From IMG/VR virus record IMGVR_UViG_2778261694_000005, positions 1 through 16,171 of that record: a DNA stretch of 16,171 nt, one strand, 5' to 3'. The position numbers and the translations under genes were made by a program. Numbering within the stretch: position 1 is the stretch's first letter; each line of letters opens with the position of its first letter. Source of the stretch: a virus. Taxonomy: Duplodnaviria > Heunggongvirae > Uroviricota > Caudoviricetes. Shown here piece after piece: positions 1,072 to 13,219 of this stretch. The notes beneath the pieces were generated by a model that saw only the letters and a list, made by a program, of their open reading frames with translations, had not been told where the DNA came from and made no database searches.

Positions 1072-1554
1072 TTATTTGATAAGAAGTGAAGGTTTCCCAA
1101 CTTTGAGTTGAGCGCCGGGGATATTTATTCCTGCTTTTAGTTGGTGTTTGATTGCCAACTTGTCGGCTTTAATTGTCGTTTCAAACTCAACGTATTCAGG
1201 AGGAATGGCGCTTGAGTCGATGATTTCTACAGTTTCTGACGGTTTGCGGATTGTTACCTGGTGAATACCTGCTCGAATCTTTTTCTTGCCAACCATTTCA
1301 AGCGATGACGCTATATACGCCATAATGTTGTCAATCTTATTTTGAATTACTGCGGCTCGTTCATTTAGTGACTTTGCCTCTTCCTTGAGGCATTCAGCAT
1401 AACCAGATTCATTTTTAATAATGGCAAGAAGTTGCTCTATTTTATCGGTAAATTCTCCTTCCATGCCTTCTATTGTGTCAGCAATCATCTCTGGTTCTAA
1501 ATCTGAATCCATCAGCTTTGCGTATTCATTGGCAATTTCATACAGTTTGCTCAT
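1072..1554 (-). CDS. Gp157-like phage protein (160 aa), recombination-module associated
   Basis: Acidic helical protein immediately downstream of the recT/HNH genes with a 4-nt overlap with the HNH ORF. Resembles, from memory, the siphovirus Gp157 family that often accompanies phage single-strand annealing proteins; family assignment is tentative. Confidence 0.5.
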   Translation of the reverse strand: MSKLYEIANEYAKLMDSDLEPEMIADTIEGMEGEFTDKIEQLLAIIKNESGYAECLKEEAKSLNERAAVIQNKIDNIMAYIASSLEMVGKKKIRAGIHQVTIRKPSETVEIIDSSAIPPEYVEFETTIKADKLAIKHQLKAGINIPGAQLKVGKPSLLIK

Positions 1555-2018
1555 TTGCCATTCCTCTCAGTGGAGATCCCAGAAGAAACCTCAGCAACTA
1601 TCCTTGCCTCGCAGGCGTCGACAAAGCTACCAAACGACCCAAGATACTCATTCATGAATGTGGCTCTCCATTTTCCTCTTTGCTTGTGAAACCCAACTCC
1701 AGTAATGCCAGATGTGTTATTTTTCTGTTTTCTCTTGTTCAGAAGATTTATTTGCTGAGAGACGCACCTAAGGTTTTCTATTCGGTTATCACTCGGGTTT
1801 CCATTGATATGGTCTATTACCATCCCTTCTGGAATTTCACCGTGGTGAATTTCCCATACAACCCTATGCACGTATTCTCTTTTTCCGTTAATGCTTACAA
1901 TGCAATGGCCAGATTTTGTTTTTCCTCCTGCCTTATCACCAGCCCTCATCCATCGTGCTGGCTTAATCCGCCAAAAAAGCAATCCATCTTCATAACGAAA
2001 CAATTCAGACGCTTTCAT
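1551..2018 (-). CDS. HNH homing-type endonuclease (155 aa)
   Basis: Contains the HNH-3 type motif VIDHINGNPSDNRIENLR and a C-terminal NTSGITGVGFHKQRGKWRA segment (AP2-like DNA-binding region). Overlaps the recT stop by 14 nt. Confidence 0.75.
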   Translation of the reverse strand: MKASELFRYEDGLLFWRIKPARWMRAGDKAGGKTKSGHCIVSINGKREYVHRVVWEIHHGEIPEGMVIDHINGNPSDNRIENLRCVSQQINLLNKRKQKNNTSGITGVGFHKQRGKWRATFMNEYLGSFGSFVDACEARIVAEVSSGISTERNGK

Positions 2019-2913
2019 GCCGAATCTCTATTTTTTCTTTACATTCCATGTAGACTGCCTGGACGTTTTGTTGCAGCTTCATACCATGTGTGAGCCTGTA
2101 GGCATTAGCGAAGATGCGCTTAAGGTCATCCATGTTTTCAGCCTGAGCCATTTCATCACAAAGAAGTTGTGCTTTATCCGTTATTTCCTGCTGGCGTTTC
2201 CGTTCATCTTCGCGGATATCTTCCTCTGATTTGTGCGGCATAACTGGTTCAGTCCACACACCTTCTTCTTCGTTTAGTACGTGAATAGCACTATCAAGAC
2301 GTGATGCCTTAGGCCAATACTTGCTTGCACGCTTTACGACCGTCTTTCGCGCCATCTCATTCCAGTGATTTACCCATGGTCCTTTATCGCTGAAGGCCGC
2401 CTTGCTTGTTTTCCTTACAGCCTCAATTTCAGCCAGACTCATCTCTTCCGTTAGATAATCACCTGCTGGCGTCTTAACTGTGCAGTAAACGCCAACGATA
2501 TCACCACGATCACCGAAGGCGTTGTATTTATGGGTTGGTGCTTTATCAAGCCCGTTTGACTCATAGGTATCGTTAGCATGAACAAGTTTTGCCTGACCCC
2601 ATGAGATAACACCAGACTCCATTGCAATATGGAGCAATCCCATATAACTGATATCAAGGCACACCATGCCGTCGCGCGGAACCAGATAAGCCAGTTTGCT
2701 GGCCGGGTTTAAGGTGATGCCGATCGCCGCAACGTTGATGATAGCGTTCTGTGCGCTGGTCGGATTTGCCAGTGCCGTTTTAGCCAGGTAATCATTTTTC
2801 TGGAAATACTGAATTGCAAACTGGCTTTCCTTAGCCCATGTCACCGTCTGTTCAGTCAATGCTCCGCAGAATAACTGCTCTTGCTGTTTAACGAATTCAA
2901 CGATATTGCTCAT
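2005..2913 (-). CDS. recT: RecT-family single-strand annealing recombinase (302 aa)
   Basis: The segment GPWVNHWNEMARKTVVKRASKYWP matches the conserved RecT core (Rac RecT GPWVTHWEEMAKKTAIRRLFKYLP, from memory). GGAG RBS upstream; occupies the bet position of the PL operon. Confidence 0.85.
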   Translation of the reverse strand: MSNIVEFVKQQEQLFCGALTEQTVTWAKESQFAIQYFQKNDYLAKTALANPTSAQNAIINVAAIGITLNPASKLAYLVPRDGMVCLDISYMGLLHIAMESGVISWGQAKLVHANDTYESNGLDKAPTHKYNAFGDRGDIVGVYCTVKTPAGDYLTEEMSLAEIEAVRKTSKAAFSDKGPWVNHWNEMARKTVVKRASKYWPKASRLDSAIHVLNEEEGVWTEPVMPHKSEEDIREDERKRQQEITDKAQLLCDEMAQAENMDDLKRIFANAYRLTHGMKLQQNVQAVYMECKEKIEIRHESV

Positions 2914-3221
2914 GCAGCTTCTCCAAAAATGTGTCTGCGTTTGAATATTGCGAAGGCATATTCAGCCTTAACTCTTTCGGTTATTGCATCCCAGAACCAT
3001 TCAGCGGCTTTTTCCTGATAGTTACAGTCATCATCTTCCAGCCAGTCGATAGCGTCCTTAGTGTGTTCATCTGGTTTATATGAGCGAAGCATTTCGCTTA
3101 TTGGGTCGCAACGTTTGCAGAGGCGATCAACTTCACTGTTGATTCGTTCGTAATCTTCATCAGTAAAACTTGCGATTATTTGCGATATTTCACGCTTATC
3201 ATTCAGAGTCAGAATCATCAT
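2910..3221 (-). CDS. Hypothetical acidic protein (103 aa)
   Basis: ATGATG start with AGGAG RBS 5 nt upstream; 4-nt overlap with the recT start. No recognisable motif. Confidence 0.55.
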   Translation of the reverse strand: MMILTLNDKREISQIIASFTDEDYERINSEVDRLCKRCDPISEMLRSYKPDEHTKDAIDWLEDDDCNYQEKAAEWFWDAITERVKAEYAFAIFKRRHIFGEAA

Positions 3222-3302
3222 CTTTCTCCTGTTCTTTGTGCTGATTGAGCATTTCTTTCATCTGACGAATGAATTCTTCGTCTGACCAGTTATCTGTAAA
3301 AC

Positions 3303-3455
3303 TCATTTCCTGCGATACCACGGAAGGTTGATAGCTGATTTCATCGCTTTATTTGCTTCAAGCCACATTTTTGAATCACCAATAAATCGGGCTATTACTG
3401 CTTTGTTCTGTGCAGCACGAAGCATCTGGTGATTAATGGCTATTTCATTGCGCAT
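3303..3455 (-). CDS. kil: Kil-like small protein (50 aa), putative host division inhibitor
   Basis: Sub-threshold ORF with a strong GGAGG RBS 5-9 nt upstream of the ATG at 3455. Contains IARFIGDSKM, which resembles the lambda Kil core as I recall it. Lies directly downstream of the cIII-like gene, as in lambda. Confidence 0.5.
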   Translation of the reverse strand: MRNEIAINHQMLRAAQNKAVIARFIGDSKMWLEANKAMKSAINLPWYRRK

Positions 3456-3574
3456 AACGCCTCCAGTTGTTTCTTTGCTGCTCTGATTAATTGTTTAACT
3501 CGGCGTGATAATTCAGATTCGTGCGGGTAGAAAGCGGACATGACGCCGCTACCCGCGAGCTGAAAGTGCATCAT
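3440..3574 (-). CDS. cIII: CIII-like small protein (44 aa), putative FtsH inhibitor
   Basis: The track ORF 3440-3679 is a read-through extension; the supported start is the ATGATG at 3574, which has an AAGGAG RBS 6 nt upstream. The product (MMHFQLAGSGVMSAFYPHESELSRRVKQLIRAAKKQLEALCAMK) has the amphipathic ES-L-R--K-L pattern of the lambda CIII central helix. Confidence 0.55.
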   Translation of the reverse strand: MMHFQLAGSGVMSAFYPHESELSRRVKQLIRAAKKQLEALCAMK

Positions 3575-3638
3575 GGGTAACTCCTTATATTTGATTGCAT
3601 AACGAAAACGCCTCGAGTGAAGCGTTATTGGTATGCAT

Positions 3639-3664
3639 ATAAAAAAGCCCTCACACTGGAGGGC
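3639..3664 (-). terminator. Intrinsic terminator (leftward) within the PL operon
   Basis: GCCCTC-ACACTG-GAGGGC hairpin (3647-3664) followed on the minus strand by a U6 tract (plus-strand AAAAAA 3641-3646). Confidence 0.6.
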
Positions 3665-3782
3665 AAAGAAGATTTCCAATAATCAGAACAAGTCGGCTCC
3701 TGTTTAGTTACGAGCGACATTGCTCCGTGTATTCACTCGTTGGAATGAATACACAGTGCAGTGTTTATTCTGTTGTTTATGC

Positions 3783-3809
3783 CAAAAATAAAGGCCGACT
3801 ATGCGGCCT
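3783..3809 (-). terminator. Intrinsic terminator (leftward) at the end of the 207-aa gene
   Basis: AGGCCG-ACTATG-CGGCCT hairpin (3792-3809) followed on the minus strand by UUUAUUUUUG; overlaps the gene stop codon. Confidence 0.55.
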
Positions 3810-4422
3810 CGGAAGGAAGTCCAATCATCTTATTCAAATCTTCTACCCGTAAAGCAGGAAGTGCTGCACTTGCTTTATCTGCTTCTTTTGGTAGCAACTC
3901 TTTGCTTTCAGGCCAGACCTCAATAAGTCGCTTAACTGTTGTGACTGAGTTCAAAGCAGCCCATACATTTGATTCGATATCCTTTTTCCTGGCTTCAAGT
4001 TTTTGTTGCAATTCGCAGATTTCATCAAACCTTTTTGTTATTTTGTGTTCTGCGTCAAACATGCATTTATCTTTGTTGGGGGTAGGGAGAAATATATCTT
4101 CACCGTTGCCGTCTTTTCCGTATGAATGCCAGCCAACCCTTCTTCCAGATACAGTCAGATAAATCGAACTTGAACTGACATCGCGTGAGTAAAATGAACA
4201 TCCAAGCTTTTGAAGTTCCTCACTTGCAGCCATTAACTTTGATGCCAGCTGGTCCACTTCTTCGGTTTTCTTTTTCCCGCCAAACGCAATAACTCTGGCG
4301 TCAAGTGCAAGCTGGTTCTTTAACTTTGTTACTTCTTCAAGTTCAGTGAAAACCCCAGACTTAATTAAAGCGTTACGAGCGATTTCCTCTTTCATTCTCG
4401 TAGTTAAGCGGATTGATGACAT
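3799..4422 (-). CDS. Hypothetical protein (207 aa from the RBS-supported start; track ORF extends to 4482)
   Basis: Long ORF immediately downstream of the N-like gene. The internal ATG at 4422 has a GAGG RBS about 9 nt upstream, whereas the ATG at 4482 lies inside N. Predicted helical/coiled-coil and charged; no motif recognised. Confidence 0.65.
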   Translation of the reverse strand: MSSIRLTTRMKEEIARNALIKSGVFTELEEVTKLKNQLALDARVIAFGGKKKTEEVDQLASKLMAASEELQKLGCSFYSRDVSSSSIYLTVSGRRVGWHSYGKDGNGEDIFLPTPNKDKCMFDAEHKITKRFDEICELQQKLEARKKDIESNVWAALNSVTTVKRLIEVWPESKELLPKEADKASAALPALRVEDLNKMIGLPSEAA

Positions 4423-4483
4423 ATTAATTCCTCTCAAATAAGTGGTTTGCTGCCTAATTTCATTTTCTGGCGACCAACACAAG

Positions 4484-4867
4484 TCACCTCGCCGTCAGTT
4501 GTTTTGATTTCCGGTAGCCTGCCGCGTAAATGGCTACGTTTGGAAGACATACACCAGTTTCTGGTTGCTTATGTCCAAACTCATTCGCGTACACAATGGC
4601 CGCTCGCTCCAGATTGCGTCTGTATTCTTTCTGTTGCCAGATCACGTCCTGTGCCATGAACTTAATTGGCTTAGCGTCTTCTATGCGCTCAGGCGTTTCG
4701 TGAGTACCTTTAGCCTGAATCTGCGCTCTGCTTAGAGTAGGGCGGTGTAATACTTCTGAACTTATTGCTTCTTCGCGGGCCAGTACGCCGTTAGCTAATG
4801 CCTTTGCCTTTAAACGCTCACGACGACGAGAACGTGAATTGCCTTTGAACTGAGTTCTGCGTGTCAT
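4484..4867 (-). CDS. N: N-like transcription antiterminator (127 aa)
   Basis: First gene after the about 240-nt leader leftward of OL/PL, with a strong AGGAGG RBS. The N-terminus carries an arginine-rich motif (RSRRRERLKAKALANG) like the lambda/P22 N ARM, and boxB-type hairpins occur at both nut positions. Confidence 0.7.
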   Translation of the reverse strand: MTRRTQFKGNSRSRRRERLKAKALANGVLAREEAISSEVLHRPTLSRAQIQAKGTHETPERIEDAKPIKFMAQDVIWQQKEYRRNLERAAIVYANEFGHKQPETGVCLPNVAIYAAGYRKSKQLTAR

Positions 4868-5032
4868 ATAGACCTCCTGATGAACTTTGGTGGTGTGGTA
4901 GGTGGGAGACCCATTTCGACCTGTTTCGGCCTACTTCAATTCGGCAATAGTCCCGCAGGCCTCGCCGCTTTACGTGCGGCATATTCCCGTCCATGAACCC
5001 TTCACCACACCCCAAAGTTCACTTTGGTTATT

Positions 5033-5047
5033 GCGCTTTGTCAGCGC
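5033..5047 (-). promoter_or_regulatory. nutL boxB RNA hairpin (GCGCUGACAAAGCGC)
   Basis: Minus-strand sequence GCGCTGACAAAGCGC: 5-bp stem with a GACAA pentaloop, in the PL leader upstream of N. I recall this as the P22-type boxB. No canonical boxA was found beside it. Confidence 0.6.
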
Positions 5048-5109
5048 CGTAGATTCATATTCGAATCGTTGTATATTCACCGCCCTGGTGAGTAGTGCGT
5101 CCTGCTGAT

Positions 5110-5200
5110 GGGTAAACTTTATCGGAATGATAAATTAATGGCAATAGCAAAATGATAAATTCTTTTGATTTTCAAATATCGTATTGATTCTTATGGTGTT
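5110..5200 (-). promoter_or_regulatory. Putative OL/PL operator-promoter region
   Basis: AT-rich region with repeated TGATAAATT motifs (5128-5136, 5153-5161) and an inverted half-site TTTATC (5118-5123). The same TGATAAA motif recurs in the cI-cro intergenic region. Exact -35/-10 elements could not be assigned. Confidence 0.45.
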
Positions 5201-5340
5201 TTATTTTGTTGTAGGAATTCGACAGGATAAATAAAGAGATTTGAGGGAGATCTGGATTGCGTGGTTTAGCAAGTTGTATCAATCAGTTTTTCAATAAATA
5301 CAATGAGTTATGTTTTTTTAGGTGGGGGGATCGTGAGGCA

Positions 5341-5365
5341 AAGAAAACCCGGCGCTGAGGCCGGG
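5341..5365 (-). terminator. Intrinsic terminator (leftward) closing the cI-proximal accessory locus
   Basis: Minus-strand CCCGGC-CUCAGC-GCCGGG hairpin followed by UUUUCUU, immediately after the 33-codon ORF and upstream of OL/PL. Confidence 0.6.
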
Positions 5366-5376
5366 TTATGTAGGCA

Positions 5377-5478
5377 TTATGCGGCTTTTTTGGTGTGTGC
5401 TGACGAGCGAGCCAGAATCTCGTTAATGAGAGATCTCAGGGTCATTGCATCTTTGTGCAGAGTGGACATGGTTTTCAT
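5377..5478 (-). CDS. Candidate small protein (33 aa, MKTMSTLHKDAMTLRSLINEILARSSAHTKKAA)
   Basis: Sub-threshold ORF with a GAGG RBS 7 nt upstream of the ATG at 5478, followed within 12 nt by an intrinsic terminator. Could instead be non-coding RNA or a chance ORF. Confidence 0.35.
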   Translation of the reverse strand: MKTMSTLHKDAMTLRSLINEILARSSAHTKKAA

Positions 5479-5547
5479 TGCGTTTCCTCGGTTTATTTTA
5501 TGGTACTAGCCTAGTTCAAATAGACTATATGAAATCTTGATTTACTA

Positions 5548-5928
5548 TTAAGGCCATTGGGTTGGTGGAAGATCGTGGGTTTTTATCTGCGTATTTGCTT
5601 CCACACATTTATCATAGTCTAATTTCTCTACAGCAAGCAATAGTGATTCAGCATACATCAATCCTTGTTTGATGTTCATAACATTTATGCTTGCACTTGC
5701 GGCATCCATATCCTTTGCTGTCTCTACCATGTGCTCAAAGCTTTGAGCAATAGAGTCAACACCGTTTTTCATCCTTGTAAACACTAATTTTAGCTCATCA
5801 AGGCTTGGATTCGTTAGATCATACATCCCATGCATTCCATGGGCTTCGAATAACTCTGACAACGATCTAAGGGCGAAGTTCACAGAATCAATAACTTGGT
5901 CGTACTTTTTCTTATCAAGATCATTCAT
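5548..5928 (-). CDS. Hypothetical protein (126 aa) in the rexAB-equivalent position, candidate lysogen-expressed accessory factor
   Basis: Clean ORF co-oriented with and immediately downstream of cI, between cI and OL/PL. Visibly AT-rich and AAA/AAT-rich codon usage compared with flanking phage genes. No transmembrane segment or known motif recognised. Confidence 0.7.
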   Translation of the reverse strand: MNDLDKKKYDQVIDSVNFALRSLSELFEAHGMHGMYDLTNPSLDELKLVFTRMKNGVDSIAQSFEHMVETAKDMDAASASINVMNIKQGLMYAESLLLAVEKLDYDKCVEANTQIKTHDLPPTQWP

Positions 5929-13063: not shown

Positions 13064-13138
13064 GGGTCAGTCGTATAAAGGTCATTACGGAAGGCTGTTA
13101 ACCTTCTTATCGTGGTTCGAGCCCACGCTGTCCCGCCA
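13064..13138 (+). tRNA. tRNA-Asn(GUU)-like gene, 75 nt, with one acceptor-stem mismatch
   Basis: Manual fold: acceptor GGGTCAG/CTGTCCC (T4:T69 mismatch), U8, A14, G18G19, anticodon stem GAAGG/CCTTC with loop CTGTTAA (anticodon GTT), T-arm CGTGG-TTCGAGC-CCACG, discriminator G, encoded CCA. Confidence 0.55.
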
Positions 13139-13143
13139 AACAT

Positions 13144-13219
13144 GCTGGTTTAGCTCCAATGGTAGAGCAGTCGCCTTGTAAGCGAATGGGTAGCGGTTCA
13201 AGTCCGTTAACCAGCACCA
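13144..13219 (+). tRNA. tRNA-Thr(UGU) gene, 76 nt
   Basis: Manual fold: acceptor GCTGGTT/AACCAGC, D-arm GCTC-CAATGGTA-GAGC, anticodon loop CTTGTAA (anticodon TGT), T-arm AGCGG-TTCAAGT-CCGTT, discriminator A, encoded CCA. Confidence 0.75.

What the first reader, a model, noticed from the sequence alone, without database searches (positions are those of the whole stretch)
3639..4482. Unknown 207-aa protein directly after N, bracketed by two intrinsic terminators and a 9-bp inverted repeat
The gene at 3799-4422 (GAGG-supported start) follows the N-like gene with no homology I can recognise. It ends inside a terminator (3783-3809), and a second terminator (3639-3664) follows about 120 bp of non-coding DNA containing GTGTATTCA-N10-TGAATACAC (3727-3754). 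In lambda and P22 the N-proximal interval holds accessory genes (ral, sieB, git), so this is a second moron-type slot in the window.
Basis: partly seen in the sequence, partly recalled or inferred. Interest (0 to 1): 0.6.

Follow-up and report, generated by a model that had tools for sequence, protein, structure and literature searches.

The report
Nmad5 gene plus PreS small RNA
The "unknown" gene after N belongs to a widespread phage protein family (Nmad5) that has a name but no known function, and the non-coding DNA behind it is a copy of phage lambda's PreS small RNA, so this is ordinary lambdoid early-operon architecture.

Summary
The sequence features are real, but both main parts are already described.

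**The ORF.** The 207-aa ORF (3799-4422, minus strand) matches Pfam PF18757 (Nmad5) over its full length, E = 5.5e-70. RefSeq already names the same gene in 211 of 5,426 complete E. coli genomes. Its biochemical function is unknown. It has no solved fold relative, few conserved polar residues and no modification enzymes nearby. Its name comes from gene context in other phages.

**The non-coding stretch.** The DNA behind the gene is 147/148 identical to lambda's ral-ea10 interval. That interval encodes the Hfq-dependent sRNA PreS/LPR1 and ends at terminator tL2a (window 3647-3664). In lambda, PreS activates dnaN and supports phage replication.

**The inverted repeat.** Its pairing, not its sequence, is kept across lambdoid and P22-like phages.

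**The slot.** It is a variable cassette position, holding Ral, HK97 gp45, Nmad5 or at least 8 others. The gene has no promoter of its own, so it is not a classical moron. It should be co-transcribed with N from pL early in lytic growth.

I infer a non-enzymatic early factor for phage DNA metabolism or counter-defence, with probability about 0.3-0.35.

The parts
4484..4867 (-). N antiterminator gene (127 aa, HK97-type), directly upstream in the same pL transcript
   Evidence: Pfam N_peptide E = 2.1e-15 and PHROG 271 E = 3e-39. It is 61 nt from the Nmad5 start. The only terminator-like site between the candidate pL promoter and the end of the Nmad5 gene is a weak 5-bp one inside N at 4565-4553. 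The fold of the N-Nmad5 spacer is not above chance, z = 0.39.
4423..4434 (-). Ribosome-binding site: GAGG at 4434-4431, 8 nt before the ATG at 4422
   Evidence: Read from the sequence. Homologues share the N-terminus MSSIRLT.
3799..4422 (-). Nmad5-family protein gene, 207 aa
   Evidence: Pfam PF18757 E = 5.5e-70 covering profile positions 1-206 of 206, and PHROG 1965 E = 3e-81. 71 close homologues all carry PF18757. 2,657 representative clusters were found. dN/dS is 0.17-0.32. The AF2 model has pLDDT 82.9.
3781..3810 (-). Intrinsic-terminator-like hairpin with U-rich tail that encloses the Nmad5 stop codon. It is the first strong terminator-like site downstream of pL.
   Evidence: The 7-bp stem is intact in 56 of 71 Nmad5 loci. 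Its 3' half and tail (GGCCTTTATTTTTGG) are shared with the end of lambda ral.
3717..3764 (-). 20-bp interrupted hairpin at the 5' boundary of PreS.
   Evidence: Longest inverted repeat in the window. -24.9 kcal/mol, z = -5.85. Four different stem sequences occupy this position in lambdoid and P22-like phages. 9 of 11 pairs changed on both sides, and 98% of the helix's cells are paired (98.7% for the whole three-helix structure) against 29-47% when the partner columns are slid.
3641..3728 (-). PreS (LPR1) small RNA homologue. The 88-nt form is predicted at about 3728-3641 and the processed 68-nt form at about 3708-3641.
   Evidence: 147/148 identical to lambda over the 130 nt upstream plus the terminator stem. 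In lambda this interval between ral and ea10 gives the Hfq-bound sRNA LPR1/PreS of about 88 and about 68 nt, ending at tL2a (bioRxiv 10.1101/2024.10.31.621285). The ends given here are extrapolated from those sizes. They are not mapped.
3641..3664 (-). tL2a-type intrinsic terminator (stem 3664-3647, U6 at 3646-3641), which forms the 3' end of PreS
   Evidence: The stem is identical to lambda 33950-33933. The PreS paper equates this site with tL2a.
3575..3640 (-). cIII leader with hairpin 3626-3607, homologous to lambda's cIII-ea10 interval. In this window ea10 is absent, so tL2a abuts the cIII leader.
   Evidence: Alignment. Hairpin -9.9 kcal/mol, z = -3.8.
3440..3574 (-). cIII gene (44 aa, HK97-type), the next gene of the operon
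   Evidence: PHROG 550 E = 2.6e-13. Same length and position as HK97 cIII.

Best explanation
This stretch is a standard piece of the lambdoid early-left (pL) operon. It is built from two known modules.

**Module 1: an optional Nmad5 gene cassette.** It encodes a 207-aa protein of the Nmad5 family. The gene has no promoter of its own. No strong terminator lies between pL and its 3' end. It should therefore be transcribed together with N as soon as repression is lifted (inferred from sequence). The first strong terminator of the operon encloses its stop codon.

**What the protein probably does (inferred, probability about 0.3-0.35).** I think it is a non-enzymatic helical adaptor. Its strongly conserved C-terminal motif (SVTTVKRLIEVWPESKELLP ... 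LPAL.V.DLN..IGLP) would engage a conserved component of DNA replication or recombination, or of host defence, at the start of phage DNA metabolism. I do not think it is a nucleotide-modifying enzyme, despite the name.

**Module 2: the PreS/LPR1 small RNA.** The 150-nt spacer is nearly identical to lambda's PreS region. A structured hairpin marks the 5' edge. The body carries the seed, and the tL2a terminator with its U tract forms the Hfq-binding 3' end. In lambda, PreS is made only in the lytic cycle. It opens the dnaN ribosome-binding site to raise beta-clamp synthesis, represses alaS, and raises phage DNA replication and yield 2- to 4-fold (shown in lambda; assumed here from near-identity).

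**A third role for the spacer.** It stays at least 96% identical between phages whose flanking genes are unrelated. It therefore also serves as a fixed joint at which upstream cassettes (Ral, gp45, Nmad5 and others) are exchanged.
For: **Family identity**
- establish Nmad5 membership and how widespread it is.

**Expression logic**
- One search finds no promoter-like site on the minus strand between 4423 and about 5100. A candidate pL lies at 5144-5116. Terminators are at 3810-3791 and 3664-3647.
- In Klebsiella and Providencia prophages, Nmad5 is the first gene after the cI-like repressor on the same strand.

**Not enzyme-like**
- Family-wide invariant or near-invariant residues are mostly hydrophobic, Gly or Pro. 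The only polar ones are R5, T162, E172 and N197.
- The model is three long helices, a beta-hairpin and small C-terminal helices.
- No modification enzymes occur anywhere in the window.

**Link to DNA metabolism or defence**
- Homologues sit in replication modules: N4-like Pollock beside exonuclease, primase, Sak4 and SSB; Scuro directly before DNA pol A; ECO1230-10 between helicase and primase; eiAU after helicase-primase; Providencia before a DUF2800 nuclease, an ssDNA-binding protein and pol A.
- The gene is core in Dhillonvirus (146 records). There a K-to-E change lets the phage escape the Tmn defence, deletion of the gene does not, and the gene is toxic to clone (PMC11846954).
- That lysine aligns with window R165, next to invariant L166 in the signature motif.

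**PreS**
-.

**Cassette exchange**
-.
Against: **Nmad5**
- No experiment addresses Nmad5 in any lambdoid phage.
- The adaptor idea rests on negative evidence (no fold match, no catalytic residues) and on gene position.
- The conserved tail is modelled with pLDDT below 50, so its structure is unknown.
- In Pseudomonas phage M6, Nmad5 does sit in a thymidine-hypermodification cassette. A role in modification there is not excluded.
- The K216 mapping assumes that phage SMA8's protein is numbered like the 254-aa SSL-2009a protein. I did not have the SMA8 sequence.

**PreS**
- Expression, Hfq binding and RNA ends were not measured for this prophage.
- The window copy lacks the 'GA' found between stem and U tract in lambda.
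- There is no Rfam model for PreS to score against.
Confidence: 0.8

Rival explanations
1. Nmad5 is a dedicated counter-defence protein, a functional alternative to the anti-restriction protein Ral. It would be made first after infection or induction to neutralise a host nuclease or sensor.
For: - It occupies the same cassette position as Ral, directly before the PreS spacer.
- Ral is present in only 8 of 80 Nmad5 loci, against 16 of 62 hairpin-anchored loci with Ral as the last gene before the hairpin.
- It is promoter-proximal in every temperate context examined.
- A point mutation in the Dhillonvirus homologue gives escape from Tmn, while deletion does not. This implies an active protein-level interaction with a defence system.
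Against: - There is no similarity to any known anti-defence protein, and there is no PADLOC hit.
- In virulent phages it is embedded in replication modules and is a core gene. That pattern fits a housekeeping DNA-metabolism role better than an accessory counter-defence role.
- Ral and Nmad5 do co-occur in some loci.
- Wild-type Nmad5 does not protect Dhillonvirus from Tmn.
Confidence: 0.25
2. Nmad5 is what its name says: an enzyme or enzyme subunit that modifies nucleotides or DNA bases. Under this reading the prophage modifies its DNA during lytic growth.
For: - The family name comes from a genome-context prediction (Iyer et al. 2013, cited).
- In M6/SN1-type Pseudomonas phages the gene lies within the thymidine-hypermodification cassette.
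- In N4-like Pollock it follows thymidylate synthase.
Against: - No conserved catalytic-type residues are seen. The one partly conserved His (H126) is replaced by D, N or S in many members.
- The fold is helical and coiled-coil-like, with no enzyme fold match.
- The window holds no kinase, aGPT-pyrophosphorylase, hydroxymethylase or glycosyltransferase partner.
- Most of the contexts examined lack modification genes.
Confidence: 0.1
3. The gene is a true moron: a gene expressed from the prophage that benefits the lysogen, for example by superinfection exclusion like sieB.
For: - It lies in the interval that holds sieB in lambda and P22.
- It ends in its own terminator.
- It is present in only about 4% of complete E. 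coli genomes, like other accessory cargo.
Against: - No promoter-like site precedes it.
- It has the same orientation as, and is contiguous with, the repressed pL operon.
- PADLOC gives no defence-family hit.
- Homologues are core genes of strictly virulent phages.
- The adjacent PreS RNA from the same transcript is undetectable in lambda lysogens.
Confidence: 0.05
4. The spacer is only a terminator cluster and recombination linker, and the hairpin is a chance palindrome.
For: - The count of terminator-like sites in 3000-5600 is not far above shuffles: 6 found against 3.2 +/- 1.6 expected.
- A 9-bp repeat alone is expected about once per window.
- The near-identity among phages could reflect recent exchange only.
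Against: - The homologous lambda RNA has been detected, binds Hfq, has validated targets with compensatory mutations, and has a deletion phenotype.
- The hairpin's pairing is retained through four unrelated stem sequences. An internal stem shows a GC-to-AU compensation.
Confidence: 0.05

Closest known systems
Pfam PF18757 Nmad5 ("nucleotide modification associated domain 5"); NCBI name "Nmad5 family putative nucleotide modification protein"; Dhillonvirus nmad5, the locus of Tmn-escape mutations
   Same: - Full-length HMM match.
- Same length of about 200 aa as most of the 2,657 representative clusters.
- Same N-terminal RLT..I...NA motif and same C-terminal TT.K[KR]L..WPE / DLN..IGLP motifs.
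- The basic residue changed in the Tmn escapers is conserved here as R165.
   Different: - The Dhillonvirus proteins are 254 aa with a roughly 50-aa insertion. They lie on the opposite strand among head genes and are core genes.
- Here the gene is an optional cassette in a temperate phage's pL operon.
- No modification genes accompany it, unlike in phage M6.
Phage lambda sRNA PreS (LPR1) with terminator tL2a (bioRxiv 10.1101/2024.10.31.621285)
   Same: - 147/148 identical over the RNA body and terminator stem.
- Same position in the pL operon upstream of cIII.
- Same GC stem plus U tract.
   Different: - Upstream neighbour is Nmad5 rather than ral.
- ea10 is missing downstream, so tL2a is fused to the cIII leader.
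- The 'GA' between stem and U tract is absent.
- Expression was not tested here.
Lambda ral and the other N-proximal accessory genes (ral, sieB, ea10; HK97 gp45)
   Same: - Same slot between N and the PreS spacer.
- Ral and Nmad5 cassettes even share the 3' junction GGCCTTTATTTTTGGCATAAA.
- These are optional genes that can be combined.
   Different: - No sequence or predicted-fold relation to Ral.
- Ral is 66 aa and acts on type I restriction-modification. No activity is known for Nmad5.
Morons in the sense of Hendrix and colleagues (own knowledge): an inserted gene with its own promoter and terminator, expressed from the prophage
   Same: - Inserted between conserved neighbours.
- Present or absent among close relatives.
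- Ends in a terminator.
   Different: - No promoter was detected.
- It is embedded in and co-oriented with a repressed early operon.

Membership tests
Nmad5 (Pfam PF18757) | Score above the Pfam gathering threshold over the whole domain | tested here: met
   236 bits against a cut-off of 27, E = 5.5e-70, covering profile positions 1-206 of 206.
Nmad5 (Pfam PF18757) | Family signature motifs (N-terminal R-L-T...I..NA; C-terminal TT.K[KR]L..WPE...LP and L.V.DLN..IGLP) | tested here: met
   Seen in alignments with close members, distant representatives and members from annotated phages.
Nmad5 (Pfam PF18757) | Genomic association with nucleotide- or DNA-modification enzymes, which is the basis of the family's name | tested here: not met
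   No such genes occur in the window. None occur in the Klebsiella or Providencia prophage contexts. The association is present only in M6 among the contexts examined. This affects the functional label, not homology.
Nmad5 (Pfam PF18757) | A nucleotide-modifying biochemical activity | not testable with these tools
   No activity has been reported for any member in the papers held. The conservation pattern and predicted fold argue against an enzyme.
PreS / LPR1 sRNA | [quoted passage not shown] | tested here: met
   147/148 over the 130 nt upstream plus stem. There is one 2-nt gap between stem and U tract.
PreS / LPR1 sRNA | 3' end formed by a GC-rich stem plus poly-U (tL2a) in the early-left operon | tested here: met
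   Stem 3664-3647 plus U6, on the pL strand between N and cIII.
PreS / LPR1 sRNA | Expressed in the lytic cycle, bound by Hfq, regulates dnaN and alaS | not testable with these tools
   Shown for lambda only.
Moron (own promoter and terminator, expressed from the prophage) | Own promoter immediately upstream | tested here: not met
   There is no sigma-70-like site on the minus strand between 4423 and the candidate pL at 5144-5116. The scan covers only consensus-like promoters.
Moron (own promoter and terminator, expressed from the prophage) | Own terminator, and presence/absence polymorphism between conserved flanks | tested here: met
   Terminator at 3810-3791. The slot is filled by at least 10 alternative genes.
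Known anti-phage defence or anti-defence families | Match to a PADLOC model | tested here: not met
   The only hit is a chance-level MTase_II match, E = 0.016, 12 bits.

The most novel reading that the evidence does not exclude
Nmad5 is misnamed. Under this reading it is not a modification enzyme. It is a very widespread, non-enzymatic, promoter-proximal early protein. Its conserved C-terminal motif would dock onto a conserved bacterial replication, repair or defence component. That interaction would be what the Tmn defence system monitors.

In lambdoid phages it would then be paired on one transcript with PreS, an sRNA that raises beta-clamp levels. The two together would form a small "replication take-over" unit.
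Probability: 0.3. Interest if true: 0.55.

Novelty: already known. Interest (0 to 1): 0.3.

Why it matters
As a scan hit it matters little. The gene is already annotated by family, and the spacer is a published sRNA.

Three residual points may interest phage biologists:
1. Nmad5 is a very large family (2,657 clusters at 50% identity). It is core in Dhillonvirus and N4-like phages, has no known activity, and its name is probably misleading. Lambdoid phages, where it is optional and genetically tractable (for example mEp235), would be a convenient system to find out what it does and why Tmn reacts to it.
2. PreS-like RNAs extend to P22-like Salmonella phages, well below the identity threshold used when PreS was described.
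3. PreS has a covarying 5' hairpin whose role, whether in processing or stability, is untested.

Tried and rejected
**Searches that gave nothing for the protein**
- NCBIfam and PADLOC: only chance-level hits.
- PDB sequence search with the single protein and with a profile: nothing.
- BFVD: only other Nmad5 or unnamed phage proteins.
- The afdb50 library was not available.

**Searches on the RNA**
- Rfam at gathering and at E <= 1: no family in 3400-5400, so this is not DicF, AgvB or AsxR, and PreS has no Rfam model.

**Literature dead ends**
- Searches for mEp235, PhiR12, SECphi18 and "tL2 + ral" gave nothing useful.
- The Iyer et al. 2013 paper that named Nmad5 is not held.
- The NMAD domain of a validated DefensePredictor defence system turned out to be Nmad2, not Nmad5.

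**Ideas tested and dropped**
- Linkage of Nmad5 to one type of recombination module. It occurs with Erf+Abc2, with RecT+Gp157 and in a locus carrying Ea10 (the Gam-type backgrounds in this sample carry Ral or gp45 instead), so there is no linkage.
- A terminator between N and Nmad5. None is convincing.
- An sRNA promoter inside the spacer. None was found.
- Small ORFs in the spacer. There are only ORFs of 21-41 aa on either strand, with no support.
- RNase III as the certain maker of the PreS 5' end. I weakened this because the P22-type hairpins have only 9-11 bp.
Full report
**What is in the sequence**

The window is the early region of a lambdoid prophage.
- On the minus strand, in map order from left to right, lie a Gp157-family gene, an HNH endonuclease, RecT, a 103-aa unknown, kil, cIII, the target ORF, N, a 126-aa unknown and a cI-like repressor. 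Transcription from pL runs leftward, from N towards RecT.
- On the plus strand lie cro, cII, O, a DnaB-like P, NinB, NinG, NinI, Q, two tRNAs, holin and endolysin.

The target ORF 3799-4422 (minus strand) gives 207 aa. GAGG sits 8 nt before its ATG, and homologues share the same N-terminus.

Its TAG stop lies in the loop of a terminator-like hairpin at 3810-3791, followed by UAUUUUU. A second terminator lies at 3664-3647, followed by U6. It is the core of a longer one, 3717-3738 paired with 3743-3764, which is the longest in the window. As RNA it folds into a 20-bp interrupted stem of -24.9 kcal/mol, z = -5.85.

Both terminators lie downstream of the gene and bracket the spacer rather than the gene.

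**The protein**

It is not without homology.
- It matches Pfam PF18757 (Nmad5, "nucleotide modification associated domain 5") end to end at E = 5.5e-70. It also matches PHROG 1965, function unknown.
- All 71 close relatives in the large protein collection carry the same domain. NCBI names them "Nmad5 family putative nucleotide modification protein".
- The same gene, at 91-99% DNA identity, is annotated that way in 211 of 5,426 complete E. coli genomes. It also occurs in phages mEp235, Kapi1, HK244 and many Stx phages.
- A profile search of 1.84 billion representatives finds 2,657 clusters. Nearly all are single-domain proteins of about 200 aa.
- The gene is under purifying selection, with dN/dS of 0.17-0.32 over 60 alleles.

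**What the protein looks like**

The AlphaFold model is confident, with mean pLDDT 82.9.
- It has three long helices (residues 8-72), a beta-hairpin (86-100), another long helix (127-158) and short C-terminal helices.
- The last 25 residues are modelled as disordered.

Across distant members, the invariant or near-invariant positions are mostly hydrophobic, Gly or Pro. The only polar ones are R5, T162, E172 and N197. A partly conserved His is often replaced. The best-conserved stretch is C-terminal: SVTTVKRLIEVWPESKELLP, then LPAL.V.DLN..IGLP. This is the pattern of a binding protein, not of an enzyme.

**Where its relatives sit**

- In 80 viral contigs with close homologues, the gene always follows an N gene. 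Four different N types occur. Sometimes Ral or a small regulator lies between. The gene is always followed by the same spacer.
- In Klebsiella and Providencia prophages (45-59% identity) it is the first gene after the cI-like repressor on the same strand. In Providencia it leads into a DUF2800 nuclease, an ssDNA-binding protein and DNA polymerase A.
- In virulent phages it lies in replication modules:
  - N4-like Pollock, between thymidylate synthase and exonuclease, primase, Sak4 and SSB
  - Acinetobacter phage Scuro, directly before DNA pol A
  - ECO1230-10, between helicase and primase
  - eiAU, after helicase-primase
- Only in Pseudomonas phage M6 does it lie in a thymidine-hypermodification cassette.
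- In Dhillonvirus it is a core gene, found in 146 records, and is set on the opposite strand among head genes.

The only experiments I found concern Dhillonvirus. A single Lys-to-Glu change in nmad5 lets the phage escape the Tmn defence system. Deleting the gene does not. The gene could not be cloned, apparently because it is toxic (PMC11846954). In a typical 254-aa Dhillonvirus protein, residue 216 is the second K of NTDKKLIKAWPE. This aligns with R165 of the window protein, next to the invariant L166. The mapping assumes that phage SMA8 is numbered like SSL-2009a.

**The spacer**

Window 3647-3795 is about 99% identical to lambda's ral-ea10 interval. Window 3560-3646 matches lambda's ea10-cIII interval. 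The window therefore simply lacks ea10. About 370 phage records hold the same spacer.

A 2024 preprint shows that this lambda interval encodes the Hfq-dependent small RNA LPR1, renamed PreS.
- It is about 88 nt, with a stronger processed form of about 68 nt.
- Its 3' end is terminator tL2a.
- It is made in the lytic cycle only.
- It activates dnaN translation and represses alaS.
- Deleting it or its seed lowers lambda DNA replication and progeny 2- to 4-fold.
- It was found in 2,537 genomes (bioRxiv 10.1101/2024.10.31.621285; also reviewed in PMC12197685).

The window's terminator stem equals lambda 33950-33933. The 130 nt upstream plus the stem are 147/148 identical. The window lacks two bases between stem and U tract. 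Extrapolating from the reported sizes, PreS would run from about 3728 to 3641, and the short form from about 3708. Rfam has no model for it, which explains the empty Rfam result.

**The hairpin**

The predicted 5' end of the 88-nt form falls at the 3' foot of the 20-bp hairpin.

P22-like Salmonella phages keep the PreS core (GAGCAATRTCGCTCGTAAC), an internal stem and a GC-rich terminator. They carry three other stem sequences at the hairpin position.

On a 37-sequence alignment:
- 98.7% of cells pair, against 29-47% when partner columns are slid.
- 9 of 11 hairpin pairs change on both sides.
- The covariation score is 0.50, against 0.03-0.13 when slid.
- The internal stem shows a GC-to-AU compensation.

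These changes represent only a few independent events, namely four hairpin types. Even so, pairing is retained each time, so the structure is selected.

The preprint text I searched does not mention RNase III, RNase E or a transcription start. My inference is that the hairpin sets or protects the 5' boundary of PreS, or the 3' end of the upstream message. RNase III is plausible for the 20-bp lambda-type stem and less so for the 9-11-bp P22-type stems.

**The slot**

I anchored a survey on the hairpin alone. In the 62 loci with enough upstream sequence, the last gene before the hairpin was:

| Last gene before the hairpin | Loci |
|---|---|
| Ral | 16 |
| HK97 gp45 | 10 |
| Nmad5 | 8 |
| Other unlabelled ORFs (at least 8 families) | 22 |
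| N itself, a small regulator, or no ORF | 6 |

- Ral and Nmad5 cassettes share the 3' junction GGCCTTTATTTTTGGCATAAA.
- The gp45 cassette can be inserted after it, which duplicates that tail.
- Nmad5 occurs with Erf+Abc2 and RecT+Gp157 recombination modules and in a locus carrying Ea10, so it is not tied to one recombination module.
- Ral accompanies Nmad5 in 8 of 80 loci (example).

So this is a real variable slot.

The gene nevertheless has no promoter-like site of its own. The only terminator-like site between the candidate pL (5144-5116) and the gene's end is a weak 5-bp stem inside N. It should therefore be co-transcribed with N as part of the first transcript made after derepression. 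It is not a moron in the strict sense.

**Most likely mechanism**

*Shown by homology or sequence:* family membership, the operon position, the terminators, and the PreS identity.

*Inferred:*
- Nmad5 is made immediately with N.
- It is a non-enzymatic helical adaptor. Its conserved C-terminal motif engages a conserved partner in DNA replication or recombination, or in host defence, at the onset of phage DNA metabolism. I put this at about 0.3-0.35.
- A dedicated Ral-like counter-defence role is the main rival, at about 0.25.
- A true modification enzyme is about 0.1.
- A prophage-expressed exclusion gene is about 0.05.

**Verdict**

Both components are already described. The gene belongs to a named family of unknown function, and the spacer is a published sRNA. 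The finding is a correct observation of ordinary lambdoid architecture.

Modest new points from this work:
- The Tmn-escape residue maps onto the family's signature motif.
- In temperate phages, Nmad5 is consistently promoter-proximal.
- PreS-like RNAs extend to P22-like phages.
- PreS has a covarying 5' hairpin.

Noticed in passing
Loci L214-L216 and L217-L295 (P22-like Salmonella phages); alignment A6: PreS-like RNAs exist in Lederbergvirus (P22-like) phages at about 73-76% identity, below the 92% cut-off used when PreS was described. They keep the core GAGCAATRTCGCTCGTAAC and an internal stem. They carry a 13-nt insertion, two other terminator stems and three other 5' hairpin sequences.
   Followed up: partly
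L336-L338 (Klebsiella prophages), L339 (Providencia prophage): Nmad5 is the first gene after the cI-like repressor on the same strand, with no N gene. In Providencia it heads an operon with a DUF2800 nuclease, an Enc34-type ssDNA-binding protein and DNA polymerase A.
   Followed up: partly
window 5548-5928 (minus strand), terminator 5367-5346: A 126-aa ORF lies directly after the cI-like repressor and ends in a strong terminator, in the position of lambda rexAB. It matches PHROG 16322 (unknown) and has no Pfam or PADLOC hit. It is a better candidate than Nmad5 for a gene expressed from the prophage.
   Followed up: partly
window 13064-13135 and 13144-13216 (plus strand): Two tRNA genes lie between Q and the holin, as in Stx-type phages, but no toxin genes follow.
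   Followed up: no
window 1072-1554, 1551-2018, 2005-2913 (minus strand): The recombination module is RecT plus an HNH endonuclease plus a Pfam Sipho_Gp157 protein. PHROGs labels the Gp157 protein "Mu Gam-like end protection", so the two libraries disagree on its name.
   Followed up: no
L018, L036, L039, L046, L050, L064, L065, L074: The HK97 gp45 cassette can be inserted about 45 nt into the spacer after Nmad5, duplicating the terminator tail. This suggests that cassettes are swapped by recombination at this short shared sequence.
   Followed up: partly
L108, L111, L128, L130, L133 (hairpin-relative -121 to +47): In loci with another upstream cargo, a 55-aa ORF (MMEHKLCGLI...) runs into the PreS hairpin. 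It may be a real small gene or an artefact of ORF calling.
   Followed up: no
window 2910-3221 (minus strand): A 103-aa protein between RecT and kil matches PHROG 3486 over its full length (E = 4e-59). It has no known function and no Pfam domain.
   Followed up: no
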